Assembly (NCBI RefSeq): GCF_964355755.1
Contig: NC_092677.1
Span: 12,174,101 to 12,238,100, forward strand
Source: Antedon mediterranea
Lineage: Eukaryota; Animalia; Echinodermata
Reading direction: 5' to 3'
DNA: 64,000 nt
Positions 1 to 30,177 of this stretch are shown here, piece by piece. Numbering within the stretch: position 1 is the first letter of the stretch; each line of letters starts with the position of its first letter. The notes below the pieces were generated by a model. The model made no database searches. It was given only the letters and a program-made list of their open reading frames with translations, and had not been told where the DNA came from. The position numbers and the translations under genes are program-made.

Positions 1-3000
1 CAGGTCTGAACATAATTTTTAAAAGTGGTCCAGAATTGGGACCGTGGTCCAGATTTTAACCTAAATTGGGCAGTGTCGTCCTTGCACCAGGTGACATGTA
101 TGGTAGTAATTTGGAGTCATTCGAATCAAAACTGTGAGCGCTAGAGTGATGACAAACAAACAAACAAACAAACAAACACACACACAAACCGCACCAATCA
201 ACATACTTGGCCAATTTTCAATTTGGCCAAGTAACAAACTAGCCTTCGCGCATAGCGCGATACTTGGCCAAATCAAAATTGGCCTCCTGACATTGACCCA
301 AATTTGCACCAAAAGTGTGTGTCTTATGCTGTGTGATTTAGGCTAATTTCATTACTATCATGTACACGAGTTTGGTGTACAGGTTATGTAACCAGCCTTT
401 CAACGAACAATAGCTTCAGTCGGCTAACAATAGAACACCAACGCGAAAAACACACGGGTGAATTTGAAAAGAAATAGGTTTTGTAAACTACTCGCATCAA
501 AAAACCTCTAAATTAAATCTAATTAAGTTTTAAAATTACAAATCACAAATTATAACTCTTGCCTCTTGTACAAAAATGGAGTTTTTTGAATAAGTAGTTC
601 GCGAGAAAATGCAATTTAGGTACTTGTTAATTTAAGACTGCTCACCGGCTTTTGATAATTCTGTCCTATCTTTTAACACTAGCAGGTCTAAAAATAATTT
701 TTAAAAGTGGCCCAGAATTGGAACCGTGGTCCAGATTTTAACCAAAATTGGGCAGTGTCGTCCTTGCACCAGGTGACATGTATGGTAGTAATTTGGAGTC
801 ATTCGACCCAAAACTGTGAGCGCTAGAGTCGAGTGATGACAAACAAACAAACAAACTAGCCTTCGCGCATAGCGCGATACTTGGCCAAATCAAAATTGGC
901 CTCCTAAACAAACTTGACTTTGACCGATTTTAACCCAATCAAAGTTCAGTATATGTCATAAACCTCCCATGTAACATGAAAATAGAGACATAATTTCTCT
1001 AGATGTAATTATAAATTAGCCGTATAATTTATATACTAAGAAATATACTTGAACAAAAAAGACGAATAATAAAAAAAAAATCTCATTTCGTTTCATTTCC
1101 CAAGGTGAGACTCGATCTCGGTAACTTAAATGCTGTAGACACCAGCACAGACCACCGAGCCATACACAACTGACTAACATTCGAAGAAAGATTCCTATGT
1201 GTATTTACCATTGTGAGCGATAGAGCGATGACAAACACACACACAAACCGAACAATAGAACAGCAACGCGAAAAACACACTGGTGAATTTGAAGAGAAAT
1301 AGGTTTTGTAAACTACTCGCATCAAAAAACCTGTACATTAAATCTAATTATGTTTTAAAATTACAAATCACAAATTATAACACTTGCCTCTTGTACAAAA
1401 ATGAAGTATTTTGGACAAGTAGTTCTCGAGAAAATGCAATTTTAGTAGTTTACTTGTTAATTTAAGACTGCTCACCGGATTTTGATAATTCTGTCCAATC
1501 TTTTAACACTAGCAGGTCTGAACATAATTTTTAAAAGTGGTCCAGAATTGGGACCGTGGTCCAGATTTTAACCAAAATTGGGCAGTGTCGTCCTTGCACC
1601 AGGTGACATGTATGGTATTAATTTGGAGTCATTCGCATCAAAACTGTGAGCGCTAGAGTGATGACAAACAAACAAACAAACAAACAGACAAACAAACAAA
1701 CAAACAAACTAGCCTTCGCGCATAGTGCGATACTTGGCCAAATCAAAATTGGCCTCCTGACAATGACCCAATTTTCACCAAAAGTGTGTGTCTTTTGCTG
1801 TGTGATTTAGGCTAATTTCACTACAATCATGTGTATACGAGTTTGGTGTACAGGTTATGTAACCAGCCTTTCAACGAACAATACCTTCAGTCGGCTAACA
1901 ATAGAACAGCAACGCGAAAAACACACAGGTGAATTTGAAAAGAAATAGGTGGTCCGGATTTTTACCAAAAGTGTGTGTCTTAATGCTGTGTGATTTAAGC
2001 TAATTATACTACAATCCTGTGTATACGAGTTTGGTGTACAGGTTATGTAACCAGCCTTTCAACGAACAATAGCTTCAGTCGGCTAACAATAGAACAGCAA
2101 CGCGAAAAACACATGGGTGAATTTGAAAAGAAATAGATTTTGTAAACTACTCGCATCAAAAAACCTCTACATTAAATCTAATTAAGTATTAAAATTACAA
2201 ATCACAAATTATAACTCTTGCCTCTTGTACAAAAATGAAGTTTTTTGGACTAGTAGTTCTCGAGAAAATGTAATTTAAGTTTACTTGTTAATTTAAGACT
2301 GCTCACCGGCTTTTGATAATTCTGTCCTATCTTTTAACACTAGCAGGTATGAAAATAATTTTTTAAAGTGGCCCAGAATTGGAACCGTGGTCCGGATTTT
2401 AACCAAAATTGGGCGGTGTCGTCCTTGCACCAGGTGACATGTATGGTAGTAATTTGGAGTCATTCGAATGAAAACTGTGAGCGCTAGAGTGATGACAAAC
2501 AAACAAACAAACAAACAAACAAACAAACAAACAAACAAACAAACACACACACAAACCAAACAGATCAACATACTTGGCCAATTTTCAATTTGGCCAAGTA
2601 ACAAACACACACACAAACCAAACAGATCAACATACTTGGCCAATTTTCAATTTGGCCAAGTAACAAACAAACTAGCCTTCGCGCATAGCGCGATACTTGG
2701 CCAAATCAAAATTGGCCTCCTGACCATGACACAATTTTCGCCAAAAGTGTGTGTCTTATGCTGTGTGATTTAGGCTAATTTCACTACAATCATGTGTATA
2801 CGAGTTTGGTGTACAGGTTATGTAACCAGCCTTTCAACGAACAATAGCTTCAGTCGGCTAACAATAGAACAGCAACGCGAAAAACACACGGGTGAATTTG
2901 AAAAGAAATAAACAATTTAAGTTTACTTGTTAATTTAAGACTGCTCACCGGCTTTTGACAATTCTGTCCTATCTTTTAACACTAGCAGGTCTGAAAATAA

Positions 3001-6000
3001 TTTTTAAAAGTGGTCCAGAATTGGGACCATGGTCCGGATTTTAACCAAAATTGGGCAGTGTCGTCCTTGCACCAGGTGACATGTATGGTAGTAATTTGGA
3101 GTCATTCGAATCAAAACTGTGAGCGCTAGAGTGATGACAAACAAACAAACAAACAAACAGACAAACAAACAAACTAGCCTTCGCGCATAGCGCGATACTT
3201 GGCCAAATAAAAATTGGCCTCCTGACATTGACCCAATTTTCACCAAAAGTGTATGTCTTATGCTGTGTGATTTAGGCTAATTTCACTACAATCATGTGTA
3301 TACGAGTTTGGTGTACAGGTTATGTAACCAGCCTTTCAACGAACAATAGCTTCAGTCGGCTAACAATAGAACACCAACGCTAAAAACACACGGGTGAATT
3401 TGAAAAGAAATAGGTTTTGTAAACTACTCGCATCAAAAAACCTCTATATTAAATCTAATTTAGTTTTAAAATTACAAATCACAAATTATAACACTTGCCT
3501 CTTGTACAAAAATGAAGTTTTTTGGACAAGTAGTTCCCGAGAAAATGCAATTTAAGTACTTGTTAATTTAAGACTGCTCACCGGCTTTTATAATTCTGTC
3601 CTATCTTTTAACACTAGCAGGTCTGAAAATAATTTTTAAAAGTGGCCCAGAATTGGAACAGTGGTCCGGATTTTAACCAAAATTGGGCGGTGTCTTCCTT
3701 GCACCAGGTGACATGTCTGGTAGTAATTTGGAGTCATTCGAATCAAAACTGTGAGCGCTAGAGTGATGACAAACAAACAAACAAACAAACAAACAAACAC
3801 ACAAACCAAACAGATCAACATACTTGGCCAATTTTCAATTTGGCCAAGTAACAAACAAACAAACTAGCCTTCGCGCATAGCGCGATACTTGGCCAAATCA
3901 AAATTGGCCTCCTGACCATGACACGATTTTTGCCAAAAGTGTGTGTCTTATGCTGTGTGATTTAGGCTAATTTCACTACAATCATGTGTATACGAGTTTG
4001 GTGTACAAATGTAACCAGCATTTCAACGAACTTCAGTCGGCTAACAATAGAACAGCAACGCGAAAAACACACGGGTGAATTTGAAGAGAAATAGGTTTTG
4101 TAAACTACTCGCATCAAAAAACCTGTATATTAAATCAATTTATGTTTTAAAATAACAATTCACAAATAATAACTCTTGCCTCTTGTACAAAAATGAAGTT
4201 TTTTGGAGAAGTAGTTCTCGAGAAAATGCAATTTTAGTTTACTTGTTAATTTAAGACTGCTCACCGGCCTTTGATAATTCTGTCCTTTCTTTTAACACTA
4301 GCAGGTCTGAAAGTAATTTTTAAAAGTGGTCCAGTATTGGGACCGTGGTCCGGATTTTAACCAAAATTGGGCAGTGTCCTCCTTGCACCAGGTGACATGT
4401 ATGGTAGAAATTTGGAGTCATTCGAACCAAAACTGTGAGGGCTAGAGTGATGACAAACAAACAAATAAACAAACAAACTAGCCTTCGCGCATAGCGCGAT
4501 ACTTGGCCAAATCAAAATTGGCCTCCTGACATTGACCCAATTTGCACCAAAAGTGTGTGTCTTATGCTGTGTGATTTAGGCTAATTTCACTACTATCATG
4601 TGTATACGAGTTTGGTGTACAGGTTATGTAACCAGCCTTTCAACGAACAATAGCTTCAGTCGGCTAACAATAAACAGCAACGCGAAAAACACACTGGTGA
4701 ATTTGAAGAGAAATAGGTTTTGTAAACTACTCGCATCAAAAAACCTGTATATTAAATCAATTTATGTTTTAAAATTACAAATCACCAATTATAACTCTTG
4801 CCTCTTGTACAAAAATGAAGTTTTTTGGAGAAGTAGTTCTCGAGAAAATGCAATTTTAGTTTACTTGTTAATTTAAGACTGCTCACCGGCCTTTGATAAT
4901 TCTGTCCTTTCTTTTAACACTAGCAGGTCTGAAAATAATTTTTAAAAGTGGTGCAGAATTGGGACCGTGGTCCGGATTTTAACCAAAATTGGGCAGTGTC
5001 CTCCTTGCACCAGGTGACATGTATGGTAGAAATTTGGAGTCATTCGAACCAAAACTGTGAGCGCTAGAGTGATGACAAACAAACAAACAAACAAACATAC
5101 AAACTAGCCTTCGCGCATAGCGCGATACTTGGCCAAATCAAAATTGGCCTCCTGACATTGACCCAAATTTCACCAGAAGTGTGTGTCTTATGCTGTGTGA
5201 TTTAGGCTAATTTCACTACAATCATGTGTCTACGAGTTTGGTGTACAGGTTATGTAACCAGCCTTTCAACGAACAATAGCTTCAGTCGGCTAACAATAGA
5301 ACCTCAACGCGAAAAACACACGGGTGAATTTGAAAAGAAATAGGTTTTGTAAACTACTCGCATAAAAAAACCTCTATATTAAATCTAATTTAGTTTTAAA
5401 ATTACAAATCACAAATTATAACACTTGCCTCTTGTATAAAAATGAAGTTTTTTGGACAAGTAGTTCCCGAGAAAATGCAATTTAAGTACTTGTTAATTTA
5501 AGACTGCTCACCGGCTTTTTATAATTCTGTCCTATCTTTTAACACTAGCAGGTCTGAAAATAATTTTTAAAAGTGGCCCAGAATTGGAACCGTGGTCCAG
5601 ATTTTAACCAAAATTGGGCAGTGTCGTCCTTGCACCAGGTGACATGTATGGTAGTAATTTGGAGTCATTCGAACCAAAACTGTGAGCGCTAGAGTGATGA
5701 CAAACAAACAAACAAACAAACAAACAAACAAACACACACACAAACCAAACAGATCAACATACTTGGCCAATTTTCAATTTGGCCAAGTAACAAACAAACA
5801 AACTAGCCTTCGCGCATAGCGCGATACTTGGCCAAATCAAAATTGGCCTCCTGACATTGACCCAATTTTCACCAAAAGTGTATGTCTTATGCTGTGTAAT
5901 TTAGGCTAATTTCACTACAATCATGTGTATACGAGTTTGGTGTACAGGTTATGTAACTAGCCTTTCAACGAACAATAGCTTCAGTCGGGTAACAATAGAA

Positions 6001-9000
6001 CACCAACGCTAAAAACACACGGGTGAATTTGAAAAGAAATAGGTTTTGTAAACTACTCGCATCAAAAAACCTCTATATTAAATCTAATTTAGTTTTAAAA
6101 TTACAAATCACAAATTATAACACTTGCCTCTTGTACAAAAATGAAGTTTTTTGGACAAGTAGTTCCCGAGAAAATGCAATTTAAGTGATTGTTAATTTAA
6201 GACTGCTCACCGGCTTTTTATAATTCTGTCCTATCTTTTAACACTAGCAGGTCTGAAAGTAATTTTTAAAAGTGGTCCAGAATTAAGACCGTGGTCCGGA
6301 TTTTAACTAAAATTGGGCAGTGTCGTCCTTGCACCAGGTGACATGTATGGTAGAAATTTGGAGTCATTCGAACCAAAACTGTGAGCGCTAGAGTGATGAC
6401 AAACAAACAAACAAACAAACAAACTAGCCTTCGCGCATAGCGCGATACTTGGCCAAATCAAAATTGGCCTCCTGACATTGACCCAATTTTCACCAAAAGT
6501 GTGTGTCTTATGCTGTGTGATTTAGGCTAATTTCACTACAATCATGTGTATAGAGTTTGGTGTACAGGTTATGTAACCAGCCTTTGAACGAACAAAGGTC
6601 TGCTAACAATAGAACAGCAACGCAAAAAACACACGGGTTAATTTGAAAAGAAATAGGTTTTGTAAACTACTCGCATCAAAAAACCTCTTTATTAAATCTA
6701 ATTCAGTTTTAAAATTACAAATCACAAATTATAACTCTTGCCTCTTGTAAAAAAATGAAGTTTTTTGGACAAGTAGTTCTCGAGAAAATGTAATTTAAGT
6801 TTACTTGTTAATTTAAGACTGCTCACCGGCTTTTGATAATTCTGTCCTATCTTTTAACACTAGCAGGTCTGAAAATAATTTTTAAAAATGGTCCAGAATT
6901 GGGACCGTGGTCTGGATTTTAACCAAAATTGGACAGTGTCGTCCTTGCACCAGGTGACATGTATGGTAGTAATTTGGAGTCATTCGAATCAAAATTGTGA
7001 GCGCTAGAGTGATGACAAACAAACAAACACACACACACACACACACAAACCGCACCAATCAACATACTTGGCCAATTTTCAATTTGGCCAAGTAACTAGC
7101 CTTCGCGCATAGCGCGATACTTGGCCAAATCAAAATTGGCCTCCTGACATTGACCCAATTTTCACCAAAAGTGTGTGTCTTATGCTGTGTGATTTAGGCT
7201 AATTTCACTACAATCATGTGTATACGAGTTTGGTGTACAGGTTATGTAACCAGCCTTTCAACGAACAATAGCTTCAGTCTGCTAACAATAGAACACCAAC
7301 GCGAAAAACACACCGGTGAATTTGAAAAGAAATAGGTTTTGTAAACTACTCGCATCAAAAAACCTCTTTATTAAATCTAATTCAGTTTTAAAATTACAAA
7401 TCAAAAATTATAACTCTTGCCTCTTGTACAAAAATGAAGTTTTTTGGACAAGTAGTTCCCGAGAAAATGCAATTTAAGTTTACTTGTTAATTTAAGACTG
7501 CTTACCGGCTTTTGATAATTCTGTCCTATCTTTTAACACTAGCAGGTCTGAAAATAATTTTTAAAAGTGGTCCAGAATTGGGACCGTGGTCCGGATTTCA
7601 ACCAAAATTGGGCAGTGTCGTCCTTGCACCAGGTGACATGTATGGTAGTAATTTGGAGTCATTCGAATCTAAACTGTGAGCGCTAGAGTGATGACAAACA
7701 AACAAACAAACAAACAAACAAACAAACTAGCCTTCGCGCATAGCGCGATACTTGGCCAAATCAAAATTGGCCTCCTGACATTGACCCAATTTGCACCAAA
7801 AGTGTGTGTCTTATGCTGTGTGATTTAGGCTAATTTCACTACAAATGTGTATACGTGTTTGGTGTACAGGTTATGTAACCAGCCTTTCAACAAACAATAG
7901 CTTCAGTCGGCTAACAATAGAACAGCAACGCGAAAAACACACGGGTGAATTTGAAAAGAAATAGGTTTTGTAAATTACTCGCATTAAAAAACCTATATAT
8001 TAAATCTAATTCAGTTTTAAAATTACAAATCACAAATTATAACTCTTGCCTCTTGTACAAAAATGAAGTTTTTTGGACAAGTAGTTCCCGAGAAAATGCA
8101 ATTTAAGTTTACTTGTTAATTTAAGACTGCTCACCGGCTTTTGATAATTCTGTCCTATCTTTTAACACTAGCAGGTCTGAAAATAATTTTTAAAAGTGGT
8201 CCAGAATTGGGACCGTGGTCCGGATTTTAACCAAAATTGGACAGTGTCGTCCTTGCACCAGGTGACATGTATGGTAGTAATTTGGAGTCATTCGAATCAA
8301 AATTGTGAGCGCTAGAGTGATGACAAACAAACAAACACACACACACACACACAAACCGCACCAATCAACATACTTGGCCAATTTTCAATTTGGCCAAGTA
8401 ACAAACAAACACACAAACCAAACAGATCAACATACTTGGCCAATTTTCAATTTGGCCAAGTAACAAACAAACTAGCCTTCGCGCATAGCGCGATACTTGG
8501 CCAAATCAAAATTGGCCTCCTAAACAAACTTGACTTTGACCGATTTTAACCCGATCAAAGTTCAGTATATGTCATAAACCTCCCATGTAACATGAAAATA
8601 GAGACATAATTTCTCTAGATTTAATTATAAATCAGCCGTATAATTTATATACTAAAAAATATACTTGAACAAACAATAAAAAAGATTTAATTATAAATCA
8701 GCCGTATAATTTATATACTAAGAAATATACTTGAACAAACAATAAAAAAAAAATCTGATTTCGTTTCATTTCCCAAGGTGAGACTCGATCTCGGTAACTT
8801 AAATGCTGTAGACACCAGCACAGACCACCGAGCCATACACAACTGACTAACATTCGAAGAAAGATTCCTATGTGTATTTACCATTGTGAGCGATAGAGCG
8901 ATGACAAACACACACACAAACCGAACAATAGAACAGCAACGCGAAAAACACACTGGTGAATTTGAAGAGAAATAGGTTTTGTAAACTACTCGCATCAAAA

Positions 9001-12000
9001 AACCTGTACATTAAATCTAATTATGTTTTAAAATTACAAATCACAAATTATAACACTTGCCTCTTGTACAAAAATGAAGTATTTTGGACAAGTAGTTCCC
9101 GAGAAAATGCAATTTAAGTAATTGTTAATTTAAGACTGCTCACCGGCTTTTTATAATTCTGTCCTATCTTTTAACACTAGCAGGTCTGAAAGTAATTTTT
9201 AAAAGTGGTCCAGAATTGGGACCGTGGTCCGGATTTTAACTAAAATTGGGCAGTGTCGTCCTTGCACCAGGTGACATGTATGGTAGAAATTTGGAGTCAT
9301 TCGAACCAAAACTGTGAGCGCTAGAGTGATGACAAACAAACAAACAAACAAACAAACAAACAAACAAACAAACAAACAAACACACACACAAACCGCACCA
9401 ATCAACATACTTGGCCAATTTTCAATTTGGCCAAGTAACAAACTAGCCTTCGCGCATAGCGCGATACTTGGCCAAATCAAAATTGGCCTCCTGACATTGA
9501 CCCAATTTGCACCGAAAGTGTGTGTCTTATGCTGTGTGATTTAGGCTAATTTCACTACTATCATGTGTATACGAGTTTGGTGTACAGGTTATGTAACCAG
9601 CCTTTCAACGAACAATAGCTTCAGTCGGCTAACAATAAACAGCAACGCGAAAAACACACTAGTGAATTTGAAGAGAAATAGGTTTTGTAAACTACTCGCA
9701 TCAAAAAACCTGTATATTAAATCAATTTATGTTTTAAAATTACAAATCACCAATTATAACTCTTGCCTCTTGTACAAAAATGAAGTTTTTTGGAGAAGTA
9801 ATTCTCGAGAAAATGCAATTTTAGTTTACTTGTTAATTTAAGACTGCTCACCGGCCTTTGATAATTCTGTCCTTTCTTTTAACACTAGCAGGTCTGAAAA
9901 TAATTTTTAAAAGTGGTCCAGAATATGGACCGTGGTCCGGATTTTAACCAAAATTGGGCAGTGTCGTCCTTGCAGAAGGTGACATGTATGGTAGTAATTT
10001 GGAGTCATTCGAACCAAAACTGTAAGCGCTAGAGTGATGACAAACAAACAAACAAACAAACATACAAACTAGCCTTCGCGCATAGCGCGATACTTGGCCA
10101 AATCAAAATTGGCCTCCTGACATTTACCAAATTTTCACCAAAAGTGTATGTCTTATGCTGTGTGATTTAGGCTAATTTCACTACAATCATATGTATACGA
10201 GTTTGGTGTACAGGTTATGTAACCAGCCTTTCAACGAACAATAGCTTCAGTCGGCTAACAATAGAACAGCAACGCGAAAAACACACGGGTGAATTTGAAA
10301 AGAAATAGGTTTTGTAAACTACTCGCATCAAAAAACCTCTATATTAAATCTAATTTAGTTTTAAAATTACAAATCACAAATTATAACACTTGCTTCTTGT
10401 ACAAAAATGAAGTTTTTTGGACAAGTAGTTCCCGAGAAAATGCAATTTAAGTACTTGTTAATTTAAGACTGCTCACCGGCTTTTTATAATTCTGTCCTAT
10501 CTTTTAACACTAGCAGGTCTGAAAATAATTGTTAAAAGTGGCCCAGAATTGGAACCGTGATCCAGATTTTAACCAAAATTGGGCAGTGTCGTCCTTGCAC
10601 CAGGTGACATGTATGGTAGTAATTTGGAGTCATTCGAACTAAAACTGTGAGCGCTAGAGTGATGACAAACAAACAAACAAACAAACAAACAAACTAGCCC
10701 TCGCGCATAGCGCGATACTTGGCCAAATCAAAATTGGCCTCCTGACATTGACCCAATTTTCACCAAAAGTGTGTGTCTTATGCTGTGTGATTTAGGCTAA
10801 TTTCACTACAATCATGTGTATACGAGTTTGGTGTACAGGTTATGTAACCAGCCTTTCAACGAACAATAGCTTCAGTCTGCTAACAATAGAACAGCAACGC
10901 GAAAAACACACGGGTGAATTTGAAAAGAAATAGGTTTTGTAAACTACTCCCATAAAAAAACCTCGTTATTAAATCTAATTCAGTTTTAAAATTACAAATC
11001 ACAAATTATAACTCTTGCCTCTTGTACAATAATGAAGTTTTTTGGACAAGTAGTTCTCGAGAAAATGCAATTTAAGTTTACTTGTTAATTTCAGACTGCT
11101 CACCGGCTTTTGATAATTCTGTCCTATCTTTTAACACTAGCAGGTCTGAACATAATTTTTAAAAGTGGTCCAGAATTGGGACCGTGGTCCAGATTTTAAC
11201 TAAAATTGGGCAGTGTCGTCCTTGCACCAGGTGACATGTATGGTAGTAATTTGGAGTCATTCAAATCAAAACTGTGAGCGCTAGAGTGATGACAAACAAA
11301 CAAACAAACAAACAGACAAACTAGCCTTCGCGCATAGCGCGATACTTGGCCAAATCAAAATTGGCCTCCTAAACACACTTGACCTTGACCGATTTTAACC
11401 CGATCCAAGTTCAGTATATGTCATAAACCTCCCTTGTAACAAAAAATAGAGACATAATTTCTCTACATTTAATTATAAATCAGCCGTATAATTTATATAC
11501 TAAGAAATATACTTGAACAAACAATACGAATAATAAAAAAAAAATCTAATTTCGTTTCATTTCCCAAGGTGAGACTCGATCTCGGCATGGATCTCGGTAA
11601 CTTAAATGCTGTAGACACCAGCACAGACCACCGAGCCATACACAACTGGCTAACATTTGAAGAAAGATTCCTATGTGTATTTACCATTGTGAGCGATAGA
11701 GTGATTATACACACACACAAACCGAACAATAGAACAGCACGCGAAAAAAATACACGGGTGAATTTGAATAGAAATATGTATTTAAAACTATTCGCATCAA
11801 AAAACCTGTACCTTAAATCTAATTATGTTTTAAAATTACAAATCACAAATTATAACACTTGCCTCTTGTACAAAAATGAAGTTTTTTTGACTAGTAGTTC
11901 TCGAGAAAATGCAATTTTAGTTTACTTGTTAATTTAGAACTGCTCACCGGCTTTTGATAATTCTGTCCTATCTTTTAACACTAGCAGGTCTGAAAATAAT

Positions 12001-18455: not shown

Positions 18456-18779
18456 CTGAAAAATTATATGTATATTATATGAATAAACACGGTGGAGTCA
18501 AATCTTAATTGCCGAGTTTCCAGTTAAGCTAAAGACAAATAATTCACATTGCATTTGCATTTATCAGATAATGTGATCACGTGCAGCGCGAAACTATTTT
18601 ATTTATATTTTTTTTAATATAATTATTATATTATTAGACAAATGTTTGGTAGAAATTAAAGAAATTGTACAGGAGACTTAATTGTAATCAACCAAAGTGT
18701 ATGCAGCAACCAAGAATAATTGTGAGTCCATTAAAGTGTGTTCACGCGTGCAGCTTAATTATGTTTAAAATTTACCTAC

Positions 18780-19400: not shown

Positions 19401-19529
19401 TCAATCAGATCATGTGACCACGGGCAGTGCAAAATATTTGCAGCCGGACAGGTGTGCATTAAGCGAGTGACTGCGAGCGGTTATTGTAAATGAAATTGGT
19501 ATGAAAAACTGAAATTGAAATTAATTGAT

Positions 19530-21320
19530 TAGGATCCGTATATGTCATAAACCTCCCTTGTTACATAAAAATATGGACATAATTTTTCTATTTTTTATTA
19601 TAAATCAGGCGTAATTTATACACTAGGCTACACAACAAATAAATTGAACAAACGATACGGATATAAAAAAAAAAAATTATTTCGTTTTTGTTTCCCAAGG
19701 TGAGACTCGATCTTGGTACCACGAGTGGTATAGACGCGATCACATACCACTGAGCCATACGCACTTGAATCAAATTTGACGTAAAGATCTTCCGTGTATT
19801 TACTATGCAGTAACCACTTTGGTGCAATTATATTATTACATACCGCAATTAATCATAATTATTTGCTATGATGACATCTTAGATGATGCACTGTCAAAGT
19901 ATATACTTTTAACTTTAATATATGAATATTTTAAAGAAGAATATTGATATTTAGTTTGTAATTTTTGCCTCTTGTATAAAAATGAAGTTTTTAAGATAAG
20001 TAGTTCTGAAGGAAAATGCCTCCTATTGTTCAGCGCGGTTCAGCTGTTATGACCATGCAAATTTGGTTTCCGGGTAACAATTTTCTTTTCTAAATATATA
20101 TATATTAGGGTTCACCGAGCATTTTGACGATCTATATTAATGTGAAAAATACGCATAATTTCATCATTGTTTAGCCTACGCGTGCGTAGCCAGTCACTTT
20201 TGACGTGCTCGTATAACGCAATTTTGAGTTGAAAATGAATAAAATGTAATGGAATTGTTGTAGAAAGGTTGTAAAATAGAAATCGTGCAGAAATGGTACG
20301 CATTAACGTTTTATGTGTAGTGCGCACGCAAAAATATGCGAACTCATGGCAAATTTTTAAACGCTTAGAATTTCTTGAAACGTACTTTAATTTCCTAAAA
20401 AATGAATTTTATAAATTTTTTAAATGTTAAGCGCACGTACGCGTACGTTATATGCGCTACGCACGTAATTATATTGCCATACGATACACAACTGACTAAA
20501 TTTTAAAGATTTCCCCGTGTATGTACTATGCAGTAACCACTTTGTTGCAGATTGATTATAATATACCGCAATGAATCATAAATAGATTTTTTCTTTAAAT
20601 AGGCCTATTTGTAATAATGTTGGTAGGATTTTGGTAGCGCGACTGAAATAGCCGGTATCGTCACTGCACATCGAGCCACTTGCATAAAAACAACCCGATC
20701 AAAGATCCGTACATGATATAAACCTCCCTTGTTACATAAAAATATGGACATATTTTTTCTATATTTCATTATTCATTCGTAGCAATTTTTAAACATTTAA
20801 AATTACCTGAAACGTACTCTAATTTCATAAAAAATGAATGTTGACAATTTAAAAAATGTTAAGCGCAGGTTGACGTATATGCGCTACGCACGTCATTATA
20901 TTGCCATATGATAAAATATGACCTGACATTTATGAGTACCAAATTTTGTTTAATTATGATAAACAACCCGATCAAAGATCCGTATACGTTATAAACTTTT
21001 CTTTTTATATAATAATAAATACATAATTTTTATATGTTTCATTATAAATCAGGCGTATAATTTTTACACTACACAAGAAATAAAATTGAACAAACAATAC
21101 GGATATAAAAAAATCTTATTTCGTTTTGTTTCCAAGGTGAGACTCGAACACGGTACCCCGAGTGGTATAGACGCGATCACAGACCATTGAGCCATACGCA
21201 CTTGGTTGAAAAAATCATCTGTGTATTTACTATGCAGTAACCACTTTGGTGCAATTTTATTACATACGGTTCAGCTGTTATGACCATATGCAAATTTGGT
21301 TTCCGGGTGAAATTTTCTTC
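19530..21320. repeat. Diverged internal repeats between the two divergent Helentron genes, homologous to the long-type array unit
   Basis: atatgtcataaacctcccttgt / cccaaggtgagactcg blocks at ~19535-19850, 20690-20770 and 20960-21260. Duplicates also at 20350-20490 vs 20790-20910 and 20037-20075 vs 21267-21308. Confidence 0.75.
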
Positions 21321-21462
21321 AGTTTAACAGTTATCGTTTGTATAGTATATACTCTAACTGAACCTACATACAGATAGTAAATTATTCACTTAATAGTCAT
21401 ATACATATACAGGTATGTTTTGTAATTTTATCCTGTAATATACAATTAACCACATTTTCATA

Positions 21463-24400
21463 ATGGCTCGTGCAAAAAGTGCTGCACAAAGACGAAAAGA
21501 GCAGAAAATGAAACAACGAGAGGTCCGTGCCTGTCAATCTCAAGAGAAGTTAGAAGAAACTCGCAAAAAATGTAGGGAAAGAATGGCTCTAAAACGAAAG
21601 GCTGAAACACAGGAAGAAAGAAATTTGAGGATCAAAAAGGTGAAATTAACTATGGAAACAAATAGGGCAAAAGAGACTGAGGAAAAAACTAAGAAAAGGC
21701 TTGATGGAGAAAAACATGCAGTGGCCGAAAGACGTAAACAAGAGACTGGGAACCAGACTAAGGAAAGACTTAAGAGAGAAAAACGTTCAGTGTCTGAAAG
21801 ACGTAAACAAGAGACTGGGAACCAGACTAAGGAAAGACTTAAGAGAGAAACACGTGCAGTGTCTGAAAGACGTAAACAAGAGACTGGGAACCAGACTAAA
21901 GAAAGGGTTGAGAGAGAAAAATGTGCAGTGTCTGAAAGACGTAAACAAGAGACTAGTCAGCAGACTACGGAACGACTTCAGAGAAAACAACTCAGAGAAT
22001 CTGAAAGACGGAAAAAGGAGACTGGTGTACAGAAAACACTGAGGCTTCGGGAAAAAAGGACTACCGAGTCACTAAGACGTGAAAACGAGTGCTCGGACAA
22101 ACGGTCGAAAAGACTGGAAAATAGCCGATTAACAATGCAAAATATAAAACAACTAAGACGTACAAAAATACCTAGTAACGATGATATTGTGTCCGATTTT
22201 TTTAAAAATGTTAAGGATTCGGCAGATTATGTGTGCTGCTCTTGTCACCGGATGATGTTCAGAATAACAGTTGTTGAATTACATGGCGATCGCTACCCAA
22301 AAGCTAAACCATCAATGCTGGAAAATGTACTTTCATACAGAATCACATCGGCTCGTGGGAAACAATGGATTTGCAGAACTTGTCATTTAACACTCAAACG
22401 AGGAAAAATGCCCACGCAAGCAAAAGCTAATAATTTGTCTTTGACTGACCAACCACGAGCGCTAAAAAATTTGAATGCTCTTGAACTGAGATTGATATGT
22501 CAACGAGTTCCTTTCATGAAGATGGTTGGGTTGCCTCGTGGAAAACAACATGGTATCCATGGTCCCGCAGTCAATGTACCAGCAAAACTTGATACAGTAT
22601 GTTCTTTATTTCCACGATTACCATCGGAGACACAACTAATTCCAATGAAGTTTAAAAGAAGTTTAAAACATTCCTCGCATTATATCTATGACTATGTTGA
22701 TATCGGAAGAGTATTAACAGCTTTGAGATACTTGAAAAGAAACAATGTGTGGTACCACGAGATCGATATCAGAGACAATTGGGTTTTGGATGCTGAAAAC
22801 GATGACAAAGAGCTCTTTCAAGCTTTAGTATGTACCGGTTCAGATAAAAATTCAGATGAGAATCTAAAAACACCCGATGAAAACAGTGACTCGGAAAATG
22901 ACGGTCAAAGTGATGGTGAGAAATTTGACCAAGCTTGCACATGCACTGAGGTTGCTGAAACGAGAGGAGGCACATACCAAATTTGTAACGTTGACGAAAA
23001 TAGCGATTTGGGGAAATTGAACACAATGGCAAAGGAAAATAACATGAACATTGTCGATGTTCCTGGAGATGGGGATTGTATGTTCTACTGCGTGTGTTAT
23101 CAGCTTGAAAGATTAGAGATCACGAAGCTGAATGTCAAGGAGTTACGGAGTTGTCTATCAAAATATATGGTTGACAATGCAGATTGCTATCGAGACTTTG
23201 TTTGTGCTAGCGTAGAATCCAATGGTCTGTCCAATGCAGATACCGAGCAACCAACTGGCGACGATCGTGCAATTTCCTTGATAAGCGATGTCGAAACAAG
23301 AAAAGAAATACAATGGATAAAATACTTGGACCGTTTAGAATCTGGAACTCAGTGGGGAGAACATATTTCACTACAAGCTATTGCAGACATGTTGTCTTTG
23401 TGCGTGTTTGTTCATACAACAACAAATATGTTAAAGCATTCTGTTCGCTCAAGATCGGAGTTGAAACATAGTTTTCATGTTGGGTTGATTGGACAGTCTC
23501 ATTACGTTGTGTTTGAGCCTTATGCTGAAGAAAATAATGACAACGATGTGGTGCTGCCTGAATCTGTGTGGCAAAATTATGATGACGATGTTGATCAATT
23601 ATTGGCAGTACATGAGATAAATGAAGAGGGTAATAATTACAGTGATGAAAATGATGCTGAAGATGCTGATGCTTTTGAAGCGGCTTCAAAGATTCGTGGC
23701 TTGCCCTATGAAACTAGCATGGTCAAAGAAAACGCTGATCTTAAAAATAACTTGATAAGCGTCGCTCCAGCCGAATCGGAAAAACCGCAGCCGATACTCT
23801 GTGATCCTAATTTTGAAGAGCTATCGAATCCTGATAAATATCCTGATGGCAAGAATGCTCTAACAGCTGAAAGACCAATTGAAATAGCTCCACGGAAATA
23901 CTTCAATCAAAGACTTCTTGATGTGGATGGACGTTTTGCGAAATCTATTGAATATCTTCTGAGCGCACAATATGCTGTGGAAAACAAACAAGTTCAGGGT
24001 GACATAAACCACTTTATATTTCGCAGAACGGCCGGAAAACATTGTCATGGTACACGTCTAAATGTTGGCCTTACTAAGAATGTTGAGAAGATGAATGAAC
24101 TGATAAAGGGCGACCATGCATACAAGATTCTAAAAAATATACGAGGTACACCTGCCTATTTTCAGACTGTATTCTATGATGTGTTAGCAATGGTGAGGCA
24201 ACATGGAATTCCAACATGGTTCTTCACTGTATCTGCTGCGGATATGCAATGGGCAGATGTGATCCAAACTATAGCTAGACAATATGGGACAACACTTTCT
24301 GATGATGATGTTCGGAATTTGTCTTTTGCAGACCGTACCATGTGGCTTAGATCAAACCCAGTAACCGCTGCACGACAGTTTCAGTACCGATTGGAGTTGT

Positions 24401-25578
24401 TGTTTAAAGATGTTCTGAAATCCAAGGCGCATCCCCTGGGTGAGATTACGGACTACGTTATTCGTATTGAATTTCAGGCTCGAGGGTCTCCGCATGCGCA
24501 TACATTACTTTGGGTAAAAAATGCACCTAAACTTGGCTTGAACTCAGATGAGGAAATATGTCAGTTTATTGATAAACATGTCACTTGTGATGCTTCTGAT
24601 GAAGACAATTCATTTACAAATCTGGTGCAACGGGTGCAAACACATACACATTCTTCTTACTGTCGGAAAAAGGGTTCGTGTTGTTTTAACTTCCCACAAG
24701 CTCCTAGTTTGGAGACAGTTGTGGCAAGAGAACCAGTTGATGACGAAAATGTGGCTGAAATACAGTATGAATCAAAGAAAGTACTCAAGTCTGTCCACGA
24801 TGTATTAACTGATACGGAAACGCCAAATGACATCAGTATGGGAGAGCTTCTTTTTAAAGCAGACGTGGAAGAATTTGAGTACATGAACTCGCTGAAGGTT
24901 TCACAAAAGGGCAACCACATTGTTTTGAAAAGAGTTCCACGTGAAGTATTTGTCAATGCCTACAATCCTACCATATTGAAAGCATGGCAAGCTAACATGG
25001 ACATACAATTCATAGTTGACGCATATGCATGTGTTATGTATGTTGCTGCTTACATGACAAAGGGTGAGAAAGGTATAGGTGAGCTGATAAAACAAGCATG
25101 CAGAGAATACAAAGACAAAGATATTAAAGGCATGCTGAGACGTGTTGGATCTGTGTTCTTGAATCATCGCGAAGTCAGTGCTCAAGAAGCTGTGTACAGA
25201 ATCTTATCGATGCCCCTTAAGAAATTCAGCAGAAAGGTACTTTTCGTGAATACCGATGACAAGTCCGAACGTGCCAGTGTACTTAAACCCATGAAAGAAC
25301 TTGAAGGCAAAAATGACACAGATGTGGACATCTTTCAAAAGAATATCATCGATAGATATGTTTCCCGACCAGATACTTTAAGCGATCTTTGTCTAGCAGA
25401 ATTTGCGGCAAATTACTCAGTGACCTCTGTTGAAAAAGAAGAAGCGGATGACAGTGTTCCATTTGTGCTTGATAACAACGAAGGTATAGTGCAGAACACA
25501 AGCAGAGATAGGTTGCCCAAACGCATTAAATTGAAAGATGGCAATGGTATGATGTTTAGGCGAAAATTGAAGCTGTGA
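21463..25578 (+). CDS. Helentron RepHel protein, N-terminal part: 23-aa STPR-like repeats, CxxC/CxxC Zn finger, DUF6570-like region, OTU cysteine protease, HUH Rep (Y2)
   Basis: 1371-aa ORF. ETGNQTKERLKREKRSVSERRKQ repeats; CCSCH...CRTCH; VPGDGDCMFY...WGEH...SHYV (OTU); WFFTVSAAD, RIEFQARGSPHAHTLLW (HUH) and YVAAYMTK (two catalytic Tyr); REVSAQEAVYR. Confidence 0.93.
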   Translation: MARAKSAAQRRKEQKMKQREVRACQSQEKLEETRKKCRERMALKRKAETQEERNLRIKKVKLTMETNRAKETEEKTKKRLDGEKHAVAERRKQETGNQTKERLKREKRSVSERRKQETGNQTKERLKRETRAVSERRKQETGNQTKERVEREKCAVSERRKQETSQQTTERLQRKQLRESERRKKETGVQKTLRLREKRTTESLRRENECSDKRSKRLENSRLTMQNIKQLRRTKIPSNDDIVSDFFKNVKDSADYVCCSCHRMMFRITVVELHGDRYPKAKPSMLENVLSYRITSARGKQWICRTCHLTLKRGKMPTQAKANNLSLTDQPRALKNLNALELRLICQRVPFMKMVGLPRGKQHGIHGPAVNVPAKLDTVCSLFPRLPSETQLIPMKFKRSLKHSSHYIYDYVDIGRVLTALRYLKRNNVWYHEIDIRDNWVLDAENDDKELFQALVCTGSDKNSDENLKTPDENSDSENDGQSDGEKFDQACTCTEVAETRGGTYQICNVDENSDLGKLNTMAKENNMNIVDVPGDGDCMFYCVCYQLERLEITKLNVKELRSCLSKYMVDNADCYRDFVCASVESNGLSNADTEQPTGDDRAISLISDVETRKEIQWIKYLDRLESGTQWGEHISLQAIADMLSLCVFVHTTTNMLKHSVRSRSELKHSFHVGLIGQSHYVVFEPYAEENNDNDVVLPESVWQNYDDDVDQLLAVHEINEEGNNYSDENDAEDADAFEAASKIRGLPYETSMVKENADLKNNLISVAPAESEKPQPILCDPNFEELSNPDKYPDGKNALTAERPIEIAPRKYFNQRLLDVDGRFAKSIEYLLSAQYAVENKQVQGDINHFIFRRTAGKHCHGTRLNVGLTKNVEKMNELIKGDHAYKILKNIRGTPAYFQTVFYDVLAMVRQHGIPTWFFTVSAADMQWADVIQTIARQYGTTLSDDDVRNLSFADRTMWLRSNPVTAARQFQYRLELLFKDVLKSKAHPLGEITDYVIRIEFQARGSPHAHTLLWVKNAPKLGLNSDEEICQFIDKHVTCDASDEDNSFTNLVQRVQTHTHSSYCRKKGSCCFNFPQAPSLETVVAREPVDDENVAEIQYESKKVLKSVHDVLTDTETPNDISMGELLFKADVEEFEYMNSLKVSQKGNHIVLKRVPREVFVNAYNPTILKAWQANMDIQFIVDAYACVMYVAAYMTKGEKGIGELIKQACREYKDKDIKGMLRRVGSVFLNHREVSAQEAVYRILSMPLKKFSRKVLFVNTDDKSERASVLKPMKELEGKNDTDVDIFQKNIIDRYVSRPDTLSDLCLAEFAANYSVTSVEKEEADDSVPFVLDNNEGIVQNTSRDRLPKRIKLKDGNGMMFRRKLKL
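21718..22000 (+). repeat. 69-bp coding tandem repeat (23-aa STPR-like unit), ~4 well-conserved copies
   Basis: agacgtaaacaagagact starts at 21730, 21799, 21868 and 21937. Confidence 0.9.
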
Positions 25579-28223
25579 TACGATTTCGAAAATTCAACTC
25601 TGAGAAAGATTCCATGAATTTTTATCGAGCAAAACTAATGTTGTATTTGCCATGGCGAGATGAAGAGACTGACTTGATTGGTAACTATCCGGATTTCGAA
25701 TCTCATTATCATGCAGTTTGTCATCGAGTTCGTAAAAAGGAAGCAAAATTCACTGAAAACCTTGACCTCATAGATCAAGCAATTCACGAGAACGCAGTGT
25801 ATGGGCCCCCAGAACATGCATGGGCAAATGTCGCACCTGGTACGGAACATGCTAATTTGCAAGATGTAAATGAAGGTGTCGAAATTGAACGTCACATACA
25901 CCAAGAAGACCTAGATGCAAATGCTGCAATGCTTGAGGAACCAGGATGTGGTCCAACGTCAGATTTGATTGCACGTTATCAAATTGAAACTGATAGAGAA
26001 CTGCTTTCACCCAGTGATTACAGAAAAATGGTGCGCGGTTTGAATGAGAAACAACGACAAATTGTGTTTTATCATAGAAATTGGTGCAAACATACAGTTA
26101 TAGCCATCAAAAACAAACAGAAAGTAATTCCGTACAGAATCTTTCTCAGTGGACCGGGTGGAGCAGGAAAAACTCACGTGATCAGACTGATTCATTCAGA
26201 CACCAGAAAGCTGCTTTCACTTTCACGGATCATAAAGCCAAATGATGTGACAGTTCTTCTGACAGCACCAACAGGTGTGGCAGCTTTTAACGTGGGAGGT
26301 ATGACAGTCCATTCTGCTTTGCTATTAAGAGTCAAGAAATATGGACAAGGAGGTGAACCACTTACGTTTGAGAAGTTAAACACCCTGCGATCTAAACTTG
26401 AGAACCTACAGCTGGTCATCATTGATGAAGTTTCAATGATTGGTTCCGATTTGCTGCTCAACATTCACAAGCGATTAGATGAAATTAAAGGTCAGTCTGG
26501 TGACGATATTTTGTTTGGCAACGTTTGTATTCTTGCTGTAGGAGACCTATACCAGCTACCGCCTGTGAAACAGTCACCCATTTATGCTCCAGTACATGAT
26601 AGAATGGAGAGACTCAATGGTTCACTGTGGAAAGACCACTTTCAACTACATGAGTTGGATAAAGTTATGCGACAGAAAGATGATCAAGCTTTTGCCGAAA
26701 TGCTTTGTCGAATCAGAGTTGGCAAACAAACTGACGATGATATTGAAATGCTGAAATCCCGAGTGATATCTGCAGAAGACGAAAACTATCCGGAAGATGC
26801 CTTGCATGTATATGCTTTAAATCGTGATGTTGATGAAAGAAATGAGAGAAAACTGGAATGTCTTGCACCGCTTGAAGAACAACGAACTCGTATCTTCGCG
26901 TCGGATGACAAACGTGACAGCACAGGTTTGGTAAATTTAGAGAATATCGGATCTTCTAAAAAACGTTCCGAGACAGCGGGATTGCACACAGTGTTGATTC
27001 TAACTGAAGGAGCACGAGTCATGCTGACATATAACGTTGACACAGCAGATGGTTTGGTAAATGGCGTCATAGGAACGGTTACATCAGTGGTAAGAAACGA
27101 CAAAGGGAAGGTACTAACTGTTCTTGTTTGCTTTGATAATGAGCAGGTTGGACTAAAGGCAAGATCTACAAGCCAATGGAAAGACATATACCCACTTGCA
27201 GTTCCAATTAAGCGTCATGAAGGAAAATTTGATAAAGGTGGGAAGAAAGGTGCACAAATTGCCCGGAGGCAGTTTCCTTTGACGTTAGCGTGGGCTGTGA
27301 CAATTCATAAATGTCAAGGACTCACTGTTGATCAGATTGTTGTTAGTATGAAAAATTCCAGACGGTTTGGACAAGGACAAGCCTATGTGGCATTTAGTCG
27401 TGTGCGATCTTTGAATGGTCTCTTCATCACAGATTTTGACGAGACAGGAATTAGAACCAGCCAAAAAATAGAAACAGAAATGAATGAAATGCGTGATCAA
27501 TTGGTGCATTCTATTCCAAAGCCAAACTTTGTCAAACTTCCCAAACCTGAATGGATCACACTTGGTCATCTCAATGTTCACTACTTCTTAGAGAAATTAT
27601 GTGACTTAAACAGCCACCATGAAACTGAACTTCTGGCAAAGACAGATGTCATGTGCTTTACCGAGACCTATTTGAAAAAGGAGCACATCATCGATCAATT
27701 TTTAATGATGCATAACTATATAGCGTTCAGAGAAGATGTGCCAGATGAACAAAATTACGCTGGCAGACATGGTGTTATGATATGTGCGTCACCAGACTTA
27801 AGACCATTGGAGCTTCCTTTGATCTCAGTAACTGGACTAGAATCAAATGTAGTTGTTCTCACGACAACAACATCTCGACTAATCGTTGCCGTTATATATA
27901 GAAAACCTTCACATTCAACAAAAGATTTCTTGCATTTACTAGACTCACTGCTTGCCCTGATGCCCTTGAATATTCCAACAATTATACTTGGTGATTTCAA
28001 TGATAATTTACTGAATGAGAAACAGTCCTCATTAACATATTTCATGGAGCGCAATGGCTTTAAGCAGTATGTGTGCAGAGCGACAACTGATGGCGGATCT
28101 TTGTTGGATCATATTTACTTTAACAGACATGATATTAATTTGAATGGTACTGTTCAGATTCATGTGCAGGATGTGTATTACTCAGACCATGACGCAGTAT
28201 TCTTATCAACAAACTGTTTATGA
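25575..28223 (+). CDS. Helentron RepHel protein, C-terminal part: PIF1-family SF1B helicase plus EEP/AP-like endonuclease (continuation of 21463..25578 after a -1 frameshift)
   Basis: GPGGAGKT (Walker A), APTGVAA, IIDEVSM (Walker B), GDLYQLPPV, TIHKCQG, QAYVAFSRV. Then HLNV, FTETYL, ILGDFND, LDHIY, YSDHDAV (EEP catalytic motifs). Confidence 0.93.
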   Translation: MIRFRKFNSEKDSMNFYRAKLMLYLPWRDEETDLIGNYPDFESHYHAVCHRVRKKEAKFTENLDLIDQAIHENAVYGPPEHAWANVAPGTEHANLQDVNEGVEIERHIHQEDLDANAAMLEEPGCGPTSDLIARYQIETDRELLSPSDYRKMVRGLNEKQRQIVFYHRNWCKHTVIAIKNKQKVIPYRIFLSGPGGAGKTHVIRLIHSDTRKLLSLSRIIKPNDVTVLLTAPTGVAAFNVGGMTVHSALLLRVKKYGQGGEPLTFEKLNTLRSKLENLQLVIIDEVSMIGSDLLLNIHKRLDEIKGQSGDDILFGNVCILAVGDLYQLPPVKQSPIYAPVHDRMERLNGSLWKDHFQLHELDKVMRQKDDQAFAEMLCRIRVGKQTDDDIEMLKSRVISAEDENYPEDALHVYALNRDVDERNERKLECLAPLEEQRTRIFASDDKRDSTGLVNLENIGSSKKRSETAGLHTVLILTEGARVMLTYNVDTADGLVNGVIGTVTSVVRNDKGKVLTVLVCFDNEQVGLKARSTSQWKDIYPLAVPIKRHEGKFDKGGKKGAQIARRQFPLTLAWAVTIHKCQGLTVDQIVVSMKNSRRFGQGQAYVAFSRVRSLNGLFITDFDETGIRTSQKIETEMNEMRDQLVHSIPKPNFVKLPKPEWITLGHLNVHYFLEKLCDLNSHHETELLAKTDVMCFTETYLKKEHIIDQFLMMHNYIAFREDVPDEQNYAGRHGVMICASPDLRPLELPLISVTGLESNVVVLTTTTSRLIVAVIYRKPSHSTKDFLHLLDSLLALMPLNIPTIILGDFNDNLLNEKQSSLTYFMERNGFKQYVCRATTDGGSLLDHIYFNRHDINLNGTVQIHVQDVYYSDHDAVFLSTNCL

Positions 28224-29236
28224 AGAGACATTTGATCTGATATGTAATATAATATAATAATAATACAGAATAATATCCGCCAAGTCACATGCTATGATAT
28301 GCACTTGATTTGAGGTAGATATTTGAAATAAAACCGAAGTGTTTTCGAATTATGTGTTTTGACCTAATTGTATTGTAGTAATGTGGAGTCATTCGAATCA
28401 AAAGCGTGTGTAAGCGATTTTGGTGTAAAGGTAAATCAAAATTGGCCTCCTAAACAAACTTGACCTTGACCGATTTGAACCCGATCAAAGTTCAGTATAT
28501 TATGTCATAAACCTCCCATGTAACATAAAAATAGTGACATAATTTCTCTAGATTTAATTATAAATCAGCCGTATAATTTATATACTAAGAAATATACTTG
28601 AACAAACAATAAAAAAAAATCTGATTTCGTTTCATTTCCCAAGGTGAGACTCGATCTCGGTAACTTAAATGCTGTAGACACCAGCATGCACAGAACACCG
28701 AGCCATACACAACTGACTAACATTTGAAGAAAGATTCCTATGTGTATTTACCATTGTGAGCGATAGAGCAATGACAAACACACACGCAACCCGAACCGAA
28801 CAATAGAACAGCACGCGGAAAAAACACACGGGTGAATTTGAAAAGAAATAGGTTTTTAAAACTATTCGCATCAAAAAACCTGTACATTAAATGTAATTAT
28901 GTTTTAAAATTACAAATCACAAATTATAACACTTGCCTCTTGTACAAAAATGAAGTTTTTTGGACAAGTAGTTCTCGAGAAAATGCAATTTAAGTACTTG
29001 TTAATTTAAGACTGCTCACCGGCTTTTTATAATTCTGTCCTATCTTTTAACACTAGCAGGTCTGAAAATAATAATTAAAAGTGGCCCAGAATTGGAACCG
29101 TGGTCCGGATTTTAACCAAAATTGGGCGGTGTCTTCCTTGCACCAGGTGACATGTATGGTAGTAATTTGGAGTCATTCGAATCAAAACTGTGAGCGCTAG
29201 AGTGATGACAAACAAACAAACAAACAAACAAACAAA

Positions 29237-29905
29237 CTAGCCTTCGCGCATAGCGCGATACTTGGCCAAATCAAAATTGGCCTCCTGACATTGACCCAAT
29301 TTTCACCAAAAGTGTGTGTCTTATGCTGTGTGATTTAGGCTAATTTCACTACAATCATGTGTATACAAGTTTGGTGTACAGGTTATGTAACCAGCCTTTC
29401 AACGAACAATAGCTTCAGTCGGCTAACAATAGAACAGCAACGCGAAAAACACACTGGTGATATTGAAGAGAAATAGGTTTTGTAAACTACTCGCATCAAA
29501 AAACCTGTATATTAAATCAATTAATGTTGTAAAATTACAAATCACCAATTATAACTCTTGCCTCTTGTACAAAAATGAAGTTTTTTGGAGAAGTAGTTCT
29601 CGAGAAAATGCAATTTTAGTTTACTTGTTAATTTAAGACTGCTCACCGGCCTTTGATAATTCTGTCCTTTCTTTTAACACTAGCAGGTCTGAAAATAATT
29701 TTTAAAAGTGGCCCAGATTTGGAACCGTGGTCCAGATTTTAACCAAAATTGGGCGGTGTCGTCCTTGCACCAGGTGACATGTATGGTATTAATTTGGAGT
29801 CATTCGAATCAAAACTGTGAGCGCTAGAGTGATGACAAACAAACAAACAAACACACAAACCGCACCAATCAACATACTTGGCCAATTTTCAATTTGGCCA
29901 AGTAA
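29237..29905 (-). mobile_element. Complete short-type family-B HINE nested in the GTTT tract of the autonomous element
   Basis: Cap at 29873-29904, core, hairpin and CTAG at 29237, with microsatellite on both sides. Confidence 0.75.
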
Positions 29906-30135
29906 CAAACACACAAACCAAACAGATCAACATACTTGGCCAATTTTCAATTTGGCCAAGTAACAAACACACAAACCGCACCAATCAACATACTTGGCCA
30001 ATTTTCAATTTGGCCAAGTAACAAACAAACAAACACACAAACCAAACAGATCAACATACTTGGCCAATTTTCAATTTGGCCAAGTAACAAACACACACAC
30101 AAACCGCACCAATCAACATACTTGGCCAAGTAACA
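29860..30135 (-). repeat. Stack of five family-B 5' caps (the last one collapsed)
   Basis: catacttggccaattttcaatttggccaagtaac at 29873, 29931, ~29989 and ~30055; catacttggccaagtaac at 30117. Confidence 0.9.
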
Positions 30136-30177
30136 AACACACGCTACCGATTACATATACCTCCTTGCCGGAGGTAA
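30133..30177 (-). mobile_element. 5' end of a family-A HINE bounding the whole array
   Basis: Reverse complement tttacctccggcaaggaggtatatgtaatcggtagcgtgtgtttgtt matches 50943-50989 with one mismatch. Confidence 0.85.

What the first reader, a model, noticed from the sequence alone, without database searches (positions are those of the whole stretch)
1..30177. A self-targeting Helentron nest: satellite built by elements inserting into their own microsatellite
Seen: the 'satellite' parses into three modules on the minus strand, namely a palindromic 5' cap, a core, and a hairpin-CTAG 3' end. The 3' ends join either directly to (GTTT)n + core with no cap (e.g. 856, 1709, 3174, 17330) or to a cap. 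Caps occur in stacks of 2, 3 and 5 separated only by microsatellite (2569/2631, 8369/8431, 12178/12248, 13746/13808/13886, 29873-30117). Known: Helentrons insert at TT without a TSD. Inference: each element carries a GTTT tract just inside its 5' cap that is a preferred target for the next copy, giving bracket-like nesting (stacked openers, serial closers). That would be a self-supplied safe-harbour that grows a >30-kb array. My manual count is ~20 caps against ~26 3' ends, so nesting alone does not balance and duplication or cap loss must contribute.
Basis: partly seen in the sequence, partly recalled or inferred. Interest (0 to 1): 0.9.

Follow-up and report, generated by a model that had tools for sequence, protein, structure and literature searches.

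The report
Transposons stacked inside their own microsatellite
At least 27 small rolling-circle (Helentron-type) transposon copies and one large frameshifted transposase gene sit head-to-tail, with almost every joint inside a GTTT repeat that each copy carries; they likely piled up by inserting into these repeats and were then reshuffled by recombination, a large example of self-insertion already proposed for this group.

Summary
The parse is real: 26 intact hairpin-CTAG ends, 20 caps, stacks of 2, 2, 2, 3 and 5, all in register with (GTTT)n. But 17.7-28.4 kb is not satellite. Insertion into the tract is supported: 7 of 9 neighbouring caps differ, neighbours are no more alike than random, near-twin units mostly have different followers, and the outermost cap interrupts the tract of another family whose paralogue is intact. 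Pure nesting fails: 7-8 ends stay unclosed, cores are recombinant mosaics, and two dimers are duplicated. Public contigs show GTTT-biased flanks, but also non-self tracts and plain sites, so 'self-only safe harbour' is not shown. Best reading: repeated insertion into GTTT tracts, then stack collapse, read-through and exchange. Precedents: Fusarium self-insertion giving multiple 5' ends, and Helitrons targeting simple repeats. This scan reported the same pattern in two other genomes. Interest 0.4.

The parts
1..17702 (-). Left block of non-autonomous Helentron (HINE) units, open at the window edge: 25 hairpin-CTAG ends, 15 caps, cores of about 600 bp (A type) or about 810 bp (with an extra B module)
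   Evidence: mean core divergence 5.3% over 25 units
7727..8400 (-). One intact unit: cap 8371-8400 (5' hairpin with subTIR), (AC)n and (ACAA)3 tract, core, subTIR, hairpin, CTAG at 7727
7065..7126 (-). The only exact head-to-tail joint (no tract between CTAG end and cap), 1 of 10 cap-to-end joints
   Evidence: the same joint is spanned by a 56-base contig without differences in run X12
12147..15356 (-). Adjacent tandem duplication of a two-unit block (offset about 1630-1638, 98.9% identical, 964 bp exact)
   Evidence: could also be an assembly duplication of two haplotypes
4472..5729 (-). Two-unit block with a non-adjacent twin at 9437-10694 (97.9%, no gaps), both bounded by element ends
17691..28432 (+). 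Helentron body inside the nest; holds diverged B-module and core pieces (74-94%) in the same orientation as the small units
21463..25578 (+). Transposase, first frame: DUF6570, OTU, Helitron-like Rep with the Helentron-type motif 2 (GSPH)
25560..28223 (+). Transposase, second frame after a single frame break near 25560-25578: Pif1 helicase and AP-type endonuclease
   Evidence: best relatives are single proteins with all these domains
28433..29904 (-). Right block: a B-type unit lacking its hairpin-CTAG end, and an intact A-type unit from 29237
29875..30132 (-). Stack of five caps, types 1,2,1,2,1, the last internally deleted
30133..30176 (-). Tract remnant and cap of a different HINE family (family A), into which the outermost copy is inserted
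   Evidence: 93% match over 60 bp to the copy at 50930-50989, whose tract is uninterrupted
50930..51130 (+). Paralogous family-A half element with an intact (ACAA)3 tract: stand-in for the empty site

Best explanation
The block is a same-orientation pile of non-autonomous Helentron copies around one frameshifted Helentron transposase gene, likely built by repeated insertion into the GTTT tract that each copy carries just inside its cap and then likely remodelled by recombination and slippage. Shown: the termini, the in-register joints, two cap types mixed in stacks, mosaic cores, two duplicated dimers and 7-8 missing caps. Inferred: (1) a Helentron RepHel-endonuclease, from this lineage but not necessarily this broken copy, inserts new copies at T|T in GTTT tracts of its own or related elements, without duplication. 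(2) Each hit splits a host into a capless body and a displaced cap; a second hit in the same tract leaves 0-3 repeat units between neighbours. (3) Cap stacks are direct repeats of 58-78 bp and collapse or expand by slippage; read-through of a 3' hairpin or unequal exchange copies two-body blocks. These processes remove the bracket balance. (4) The concentration in one place needs more than a short target word, so local re-insertion or in-place exchange must contribute.
For: All 46 termini are in register with the tract or directly joined. All 11 directly capped cores carry 3-12 tract units. Core-side remnants (mean 7 units, n=16) and cap-side remnants (mean 2, n=10) fit split tracts. 7 of 9 adjacent caps differ, in both orders. 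The outermost cap interrupts a family-A tract whose paralogue is intact. Neighbours are not more alike than random (p=0.34; Mantel p=0.23). Similar units do not share similar followers (rho -0.03, p=0.60, 300 pairs). Four near-twin pairs (5803/8472, 3174/28433, 5104/10069, 13106/14744) differ both in cap state and in follower. In public contigs, 7 of 7 shown rows at the CTAG end and 5 of 7 at the cap run into ACAA-type repeats, one of them a non-self tract. Remodelling: four-gamete conflicts rise from 0.13 to 0.45 with distance (p=0.0005); mosaic painting gains 41 against at most 14 in 60 shuffles.
Against: Brackets leave 8 of 27 ends open, or 7 of 26; cap loss is inferred, not observed, apart from the internally deleted last cap. 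All 5 cores with one right-end variant are capped, against 6 of 22 others (p=0.006). That fits joints inherited by descent as well as a young wave with short tracts. Mid-core recombination shows exchange is active, and exchange concentrated at tracts or hairpins would also break follower continuity. 2 of 7 cap-side rows (3 contigs) are plain non-tract sites. Read rows are consensus lines over contigs, not copies; three of the four runs are one sample, and 5 rows were not shown. No presence/absence polymorphism was seen or could be tested.
Confidence: 0.6

Rival explanations
1. A handful of seed insertions (about 4-6) made each kind of joint, and unequal exchange then amplified and shuffled them into an ordinary satellite; most units never transposed.
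For: Mosaic cores; an adjacent 1.6-kb duplication at 98.9%; cap state linked to a core variant (p=0.006); unbalanced brackets. The two-step model is published for other elements (PMC5932611, passages).
Against: No neighbour similarity and no follower continuity beyond two dimers. Near-twin right halves change partner exactly at the joint. I did not simulate this model, so the power of these tests is unknown.
Confidence: 0.22
2. Rolling-circle concatemers were inserted in one or a few events, with 5' ends lost or bypassed.
For: All units face one way. One exact head-to-tail joint exists and recurs in reads. The non-adjacent dimer is bounded by element ends, as 3' read-through would give. Tandem whole Helitrons are cited in PMC7492417 and PMC5148889 (passages).
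Against: Only 1 of 10 cap-to-end joints is exact. Adjacent units differ by 5.2% on average. Concatemers do not make stacks of mixed caps.
Confidence: 0.07
3. Pure one-by-one nesting without later change (the strict first reading).
For: In-register joints and mixed cap stacks. Displaced caps are mostly type 2 (7 of 9) and first caps mostly type 1 (8 of 11), p=0.07.
Against: 7-8 unclosed ends in a block whose right edge is visible; duplicated dimers; recombinant cores.
Confidence: 0.05
4. The order of units is mostly an assembly artefact of a collapsed repeat.
For: One block is duplicated with 964 bp exact.
Against: Apart from that duplicated block nearly every unit carries private differences. 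Capless, cap-cap, exact and one-unit joints all occur in public contigs.
Confidence: 0.03

Closest known systems
HINE / DINE-1 non-autonomous Helentrons (PMC4067079; passages and part 1 of 3 of Results read)
   Same: subTIRs at both ends, 5' inverted repeat, 3' stem-loop, internal microsatellite, insertion between Ts with no target change, partner with Rep, Pif1, endonuclease and OTU
   Different: In the passages seen they are dispersed copies in T-rich sites. Here whole copies are piled in their own microsatellite, and the unit has no central tandem array.
FoHeli self-insertion, Fusarium oxysporum (PMC5148889; passages)
   Same: Multiple 5' termini repeating the first 31-85 nt, explained by self-insertion; here the stack periods are 58-78 bp. 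ORF reversed against the termini in some subgroups.
   Different: A few termini per element, no endonuclease, no microsatellite target or long array in the passages seen.
MINE-1 Helitron-like elements at (GAAA)n (seen only as cited in PMC3812793) and Paramecium Helitrons in telomeric repeats (PMC13085455; passages)
   Same: A rolling-circle element flanked on both sides by a simple repeat in fixed orientation, read as targeting of the repeat
   Different: There the repeat is host sequence; here it is carried by the element family and its relatives.
TE tandem dimers expanding by unequal exchange (PMC5932611; passages)
   Same: Target preference makes tandems; exchange then acts on them
   Different: Side-by-side double insertions with target duplications in Drosophila; here nested, without duplication, with displaced caps.
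Oyster Cg_HINEs (PMC7492417; passages) and Hydractinia subtelomeric Helitron-like repeats (PMC11934779; part 1 of 6)
   Same: Helentron/Helitron derivatives that yield satellite-like arrays; 4-nt microsatellite in the left module of Cg_HINEs
   Different: In oyster the arrays are central repeats inside one element; here the monomer is the whole element.

Membership tests
Helentron (HLE2) transposase | Rep + Pif1 helicase + AP-type endonuclease, often OTU | tested here: met
   Pfam PF14214, PF05970, PF03372, PF02338, all above cut-off, across two frames
Helentron (HLE2) transposase | DUF6570 marker; F/Y-x-x-R before motif 2 and S in GSPH | tested here: met
   PF20209 E 6.6e-19; motif; criteria read
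Helentron (HLE2) transposase | Intact single reading frame (autonomous) | tested here: not met
   One frame break near 25560-25578, no internal stops; a real break and an assembly error were not told apart
Helentron (HLE2) transposase | Placement in the HLE2 clade by phylogeny | not tested
   No tree built; best relatives (81% and 59%) carry the same domain set
HINE (non-autonomous Helentron) | subTIRs, 5' hairpin, 3' stem-loop after the 3' subTIR | tested here: met
HINE (non-autonomous Helentron) | Insertion at TT without target duplication | tested here: met
   In-register joints and one paralogous uninterrupted site; not a true orthologous empty site
HINE (non-autonomous Helentron) | Deletion derivative of a coding partner with the same ends | tested here: inconclusive
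   Collinear pieces at 74-94% in the coding body, but its own ends cannot be assigned within the nest
HLE2-reverse arrangement | Stem-loop end upstream of the ORF | tested here: inconclusive
   The ORF reads from the hairpin-CTAG side towards the caps; this holds only if these ends are its own. Definition read
Self-targeting element | Genome-wide excess of insertions in own tract over other GTTT or T-rich sites | tested here: inconclusive
   Contig flanks mostly tract or self, some non-self and plain; no genome held
Homogenised satellite DNA | Neighbouring monomers more alike, repeated higher-order blocks | tested here: not met
   p=0.34 and 0.23; only two dimer duplications

The most novel reading that the evidence does not exclude
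The family truly targets itself: the transposase is drawn to the cap of a resident copy and inserts 58-78 bp inside it. This builds a satellite-scale array by transposition rather than crossing-over, around an animal, endonuclease-bearing Helentron with the reversed (HLE2-reverse) layout. The skew of insertion points towards the cap (7 against 2 units, p=6e-5) and the near absence of foreign flanks in contigs fit this.
Probability: 0.3. Interest if true: 0.65.

Novelty: new variant of a known kind. Interest (0 to 1): 0.4.

Why it matters
It offers a concrete route from a rolling-circle transposon to a satellite-like block, in which the element supplies its own landing site. The joints keep a readable record, so insertion and crossing-over can be told apart with long reads from a few individuals. 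Each ingredient is published; I did not find the combination at this scale in six literature searches. It is a good test locus, not a new kind of system.

Tried and rejected
No host genome is held, so the genome-wide flank table could not be made. A translated search of metagenome contigs found no relative of the helicase frame (0 of 28 candidates). A degenerate subTIR pattern gave 12 loci, all chance matches of 21-30 bases with no element around them. Look-ups of earlier findings by sequence and by place returned nothing. No hairpin ends of a separate element were found in 17300-21500 or 28150-28520 at the settings used; this is weak evidence. Matching cap type to core through the bracket parse fitted two twin-based predictions (28433 and 10069 to type 2), but 7 of 9 displaced caps are type 2 anyway, so I gave it no weight. 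Read depths were not used as copy numbers. Simple cap deletion as the origin of capless joints was rejected for four twin pairs because the follower also differs. A short T-rich target word alone was rejected as the cause of clustering: TTTVTT occurs 8.9 and TTTGTT 2.5 times per kb outside the array. Supplements of the papers were not read; the figures on HLE2-reverse are supplementary and may bear on the orientation claim.
Full report
Observation. I describe the + strand, on which a unit reads CTAG end, core, (ACAA)n tract, cap. A scan with slices of the window finds 26 intact CTAG-hairpin-subTIR ends and 19 full caps. A 20th cap, shortened by a deletion between its two inner repeats, is at 30119, and a unit lacking its hairpin end starts at 28433. 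Sixteen cores run through the tract straight into the next CTAG end, and 11 are followed by a cap. Both hairpins are significant against shuffles. The joints are in register: 25 of 26 ends follow ACAAA and 19 of 20 caps precede ACAAAC. The exception on both counts is one exact head-to-tail joint at 7094-7096. Outside the array these contexts make up 1.2% and 0.2% of 8237 TT steps.

17691-28432 is not repeat. Two overlapping frames (1379 and 887 codons) encode DUF6570, OTU, Helitron Rep, Pif1 helicase and an endonuclease, with the motif-2 signature that PMC4067079 gives for Helentrons. The best relatives are single proteins with all these domains, up to 81% identical; the named hits are from a tunicate and lancelets. 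The gene therefore has one frame break. The body holds diverged pieces of the small units in the same order and orientation, which suggests kinship. If the ends are its own, the ORF reads from the hairpin end towards the cap, the layout that PMC11417382 calls HLE2-reverse and describes for Fusarium. That link is unproven. The repeats total 19.4 kb in the window and continue past the left edge.

Evidence for insertion into the tract. There are two cap types. Seven of 9 adjacent pairs differ, in both orders, so slippage of one cap cannot make the stacks. Spacers between a cap and the next end are 0, 1, 2 or 3 units (1, 4, 3 and 2 cases). The last cap is followed by one tract unit and the cap of another HINE family. 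A paralogue of that family at 50930-51130 has the tract whole, and it is the only (ACAA)3 tract outside the array in the window. Adjacent units are no more alike than random (0.052 against 0.053, p=0.34; Mantel p=0.23; 25 units). Similar units do not have similar followers (p=0.60). Four near-twin pairs change both cap state and follower at the joint.

Public contigs. Laid on the exact joint (four runs, two samples; 23 of 28 loose-end rows shown), all 7 rows at the CTAG end (17 contigs) end in ACAA or ACAG repeats. At the cap, 5 of 7 rows (13 contigs) continue in such repeats, including one non-self tract seen in three runs of one sample, and 2 rows (3 contigs) are plain sites. The share of laid sequence running into foreign DNA is 0, 0, 0 and 0.03. 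Capless, cap-cap and one-unit joints also occur there. These rows are consensus lines over contigs, and short overlaps with unique flanks may be missed, so they show a bias but cannot measure it.

Evidence against pure nesting. The right edge is in the window, so every end should be closed, yet 8 of 27 stay open (7 without 28433). Cores are mosaics: four-gamete conflicts rise with distance (p=0.0005), and painting finds 18 switches against a mean of 6 in shuffles. Two dimers are duplicated: one adjacent (98.9%) and one distant and bounded by element ends (97.9%). One core variant is always capped (5 of 5 against 6 of 22, p=0.006). Cap stacks are direct repeats of 58-78 bp, so collapse is expected, and 3' read-through would copy two bodies with one cap; both points are inferences. 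Imbalance therefore refutes the strict model, not the insertion origin.

Mechanism. Most likely (0.6), insertions land repeatedly in GTTT tracts of own or related copies, and slippage, read-through and exchange follow. Short target words are too common outside the array to explain the clustering, so a local or self-directed component is needed; I cannot say which. The main rival (0.22) is a few seed insertions amplified by unequal exchange with breakpoints concentrated at the joints. I did not simulate it.

Comparison. PMC5148889 reports multiple 5' termini repeating 31-85 nt and proposes self-insertion. PMC11417382 shows a frog HLE2 with two different left ends in direct repeat. Targeting of simple repeats is cited for MINE-1 (original paper not seen) and argued for Paramecium Helitrons. 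Tandem insertion followed by exchange is the model of PMC5932611. Six searches gave no paper describing a long array built in an element's own microsatellite. The library lacks most subscription papers, and I read only passages or sections. Two earlier notes of this scan describe the same pattern in other genomes with other short repeats; they are leads, not support.

Verdict. A real and well-formed example of a known kind of behaviour at a larger scale, with a missed transposase gene inside. New variant of a known kind; interest 0.4.

Noticed in passing
window 54647-55097 (-): Family-A left end (CTAG, weak hairpin, subTIR matching the CCTCC-type cap) joined to a piece 85% identical to the array core: two families with different ends share internal sequence. 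Contig loose ends at the same boundary show many such copies.
   Followed up: partly
window 30780-31078: Another HINE-like element with two diverged internal repeats, an (AC)n tract and a family-A-type cap. All three such caps in the window (30160, 31059, 50947) have AT-rich, non-tract outer flanks, unlike family B.
   Followed up: partly
window 17895-18497 (-): 200-codon open frame upstream of and opposite to the transposase, no Pfam match. PMC5148889 mentions a similarly placed ORF in FoHeli3; any relation is untested.
   Followed up: partly
window 21671-22025: Five copies of a 69-bp coding repeat in the N-terminal part of the transposase.
   Followed up: no
window 1709-2470, 2672-3112, 8617-8749: Units with internal changes: a 188-bp duplication, a deletion of about 130 bp, a 66-bp duplication.
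   Followed up: no
window 31375-31743, 34233-34676, 36721-37212, 63153-63515 (all -): Exon-like frames that look like EGF, immunoglobulin, C-type lectin and kringle-like modules (judged by eye, from recall; not searched): possibly a host gene whose intron or flank holds the nest.
   Followed up: no
window 39521-54634: Several broken reverse-transcriptase and endonuclease frames of non-LTR retrotransposons (judged by eye).
   Followed up: no
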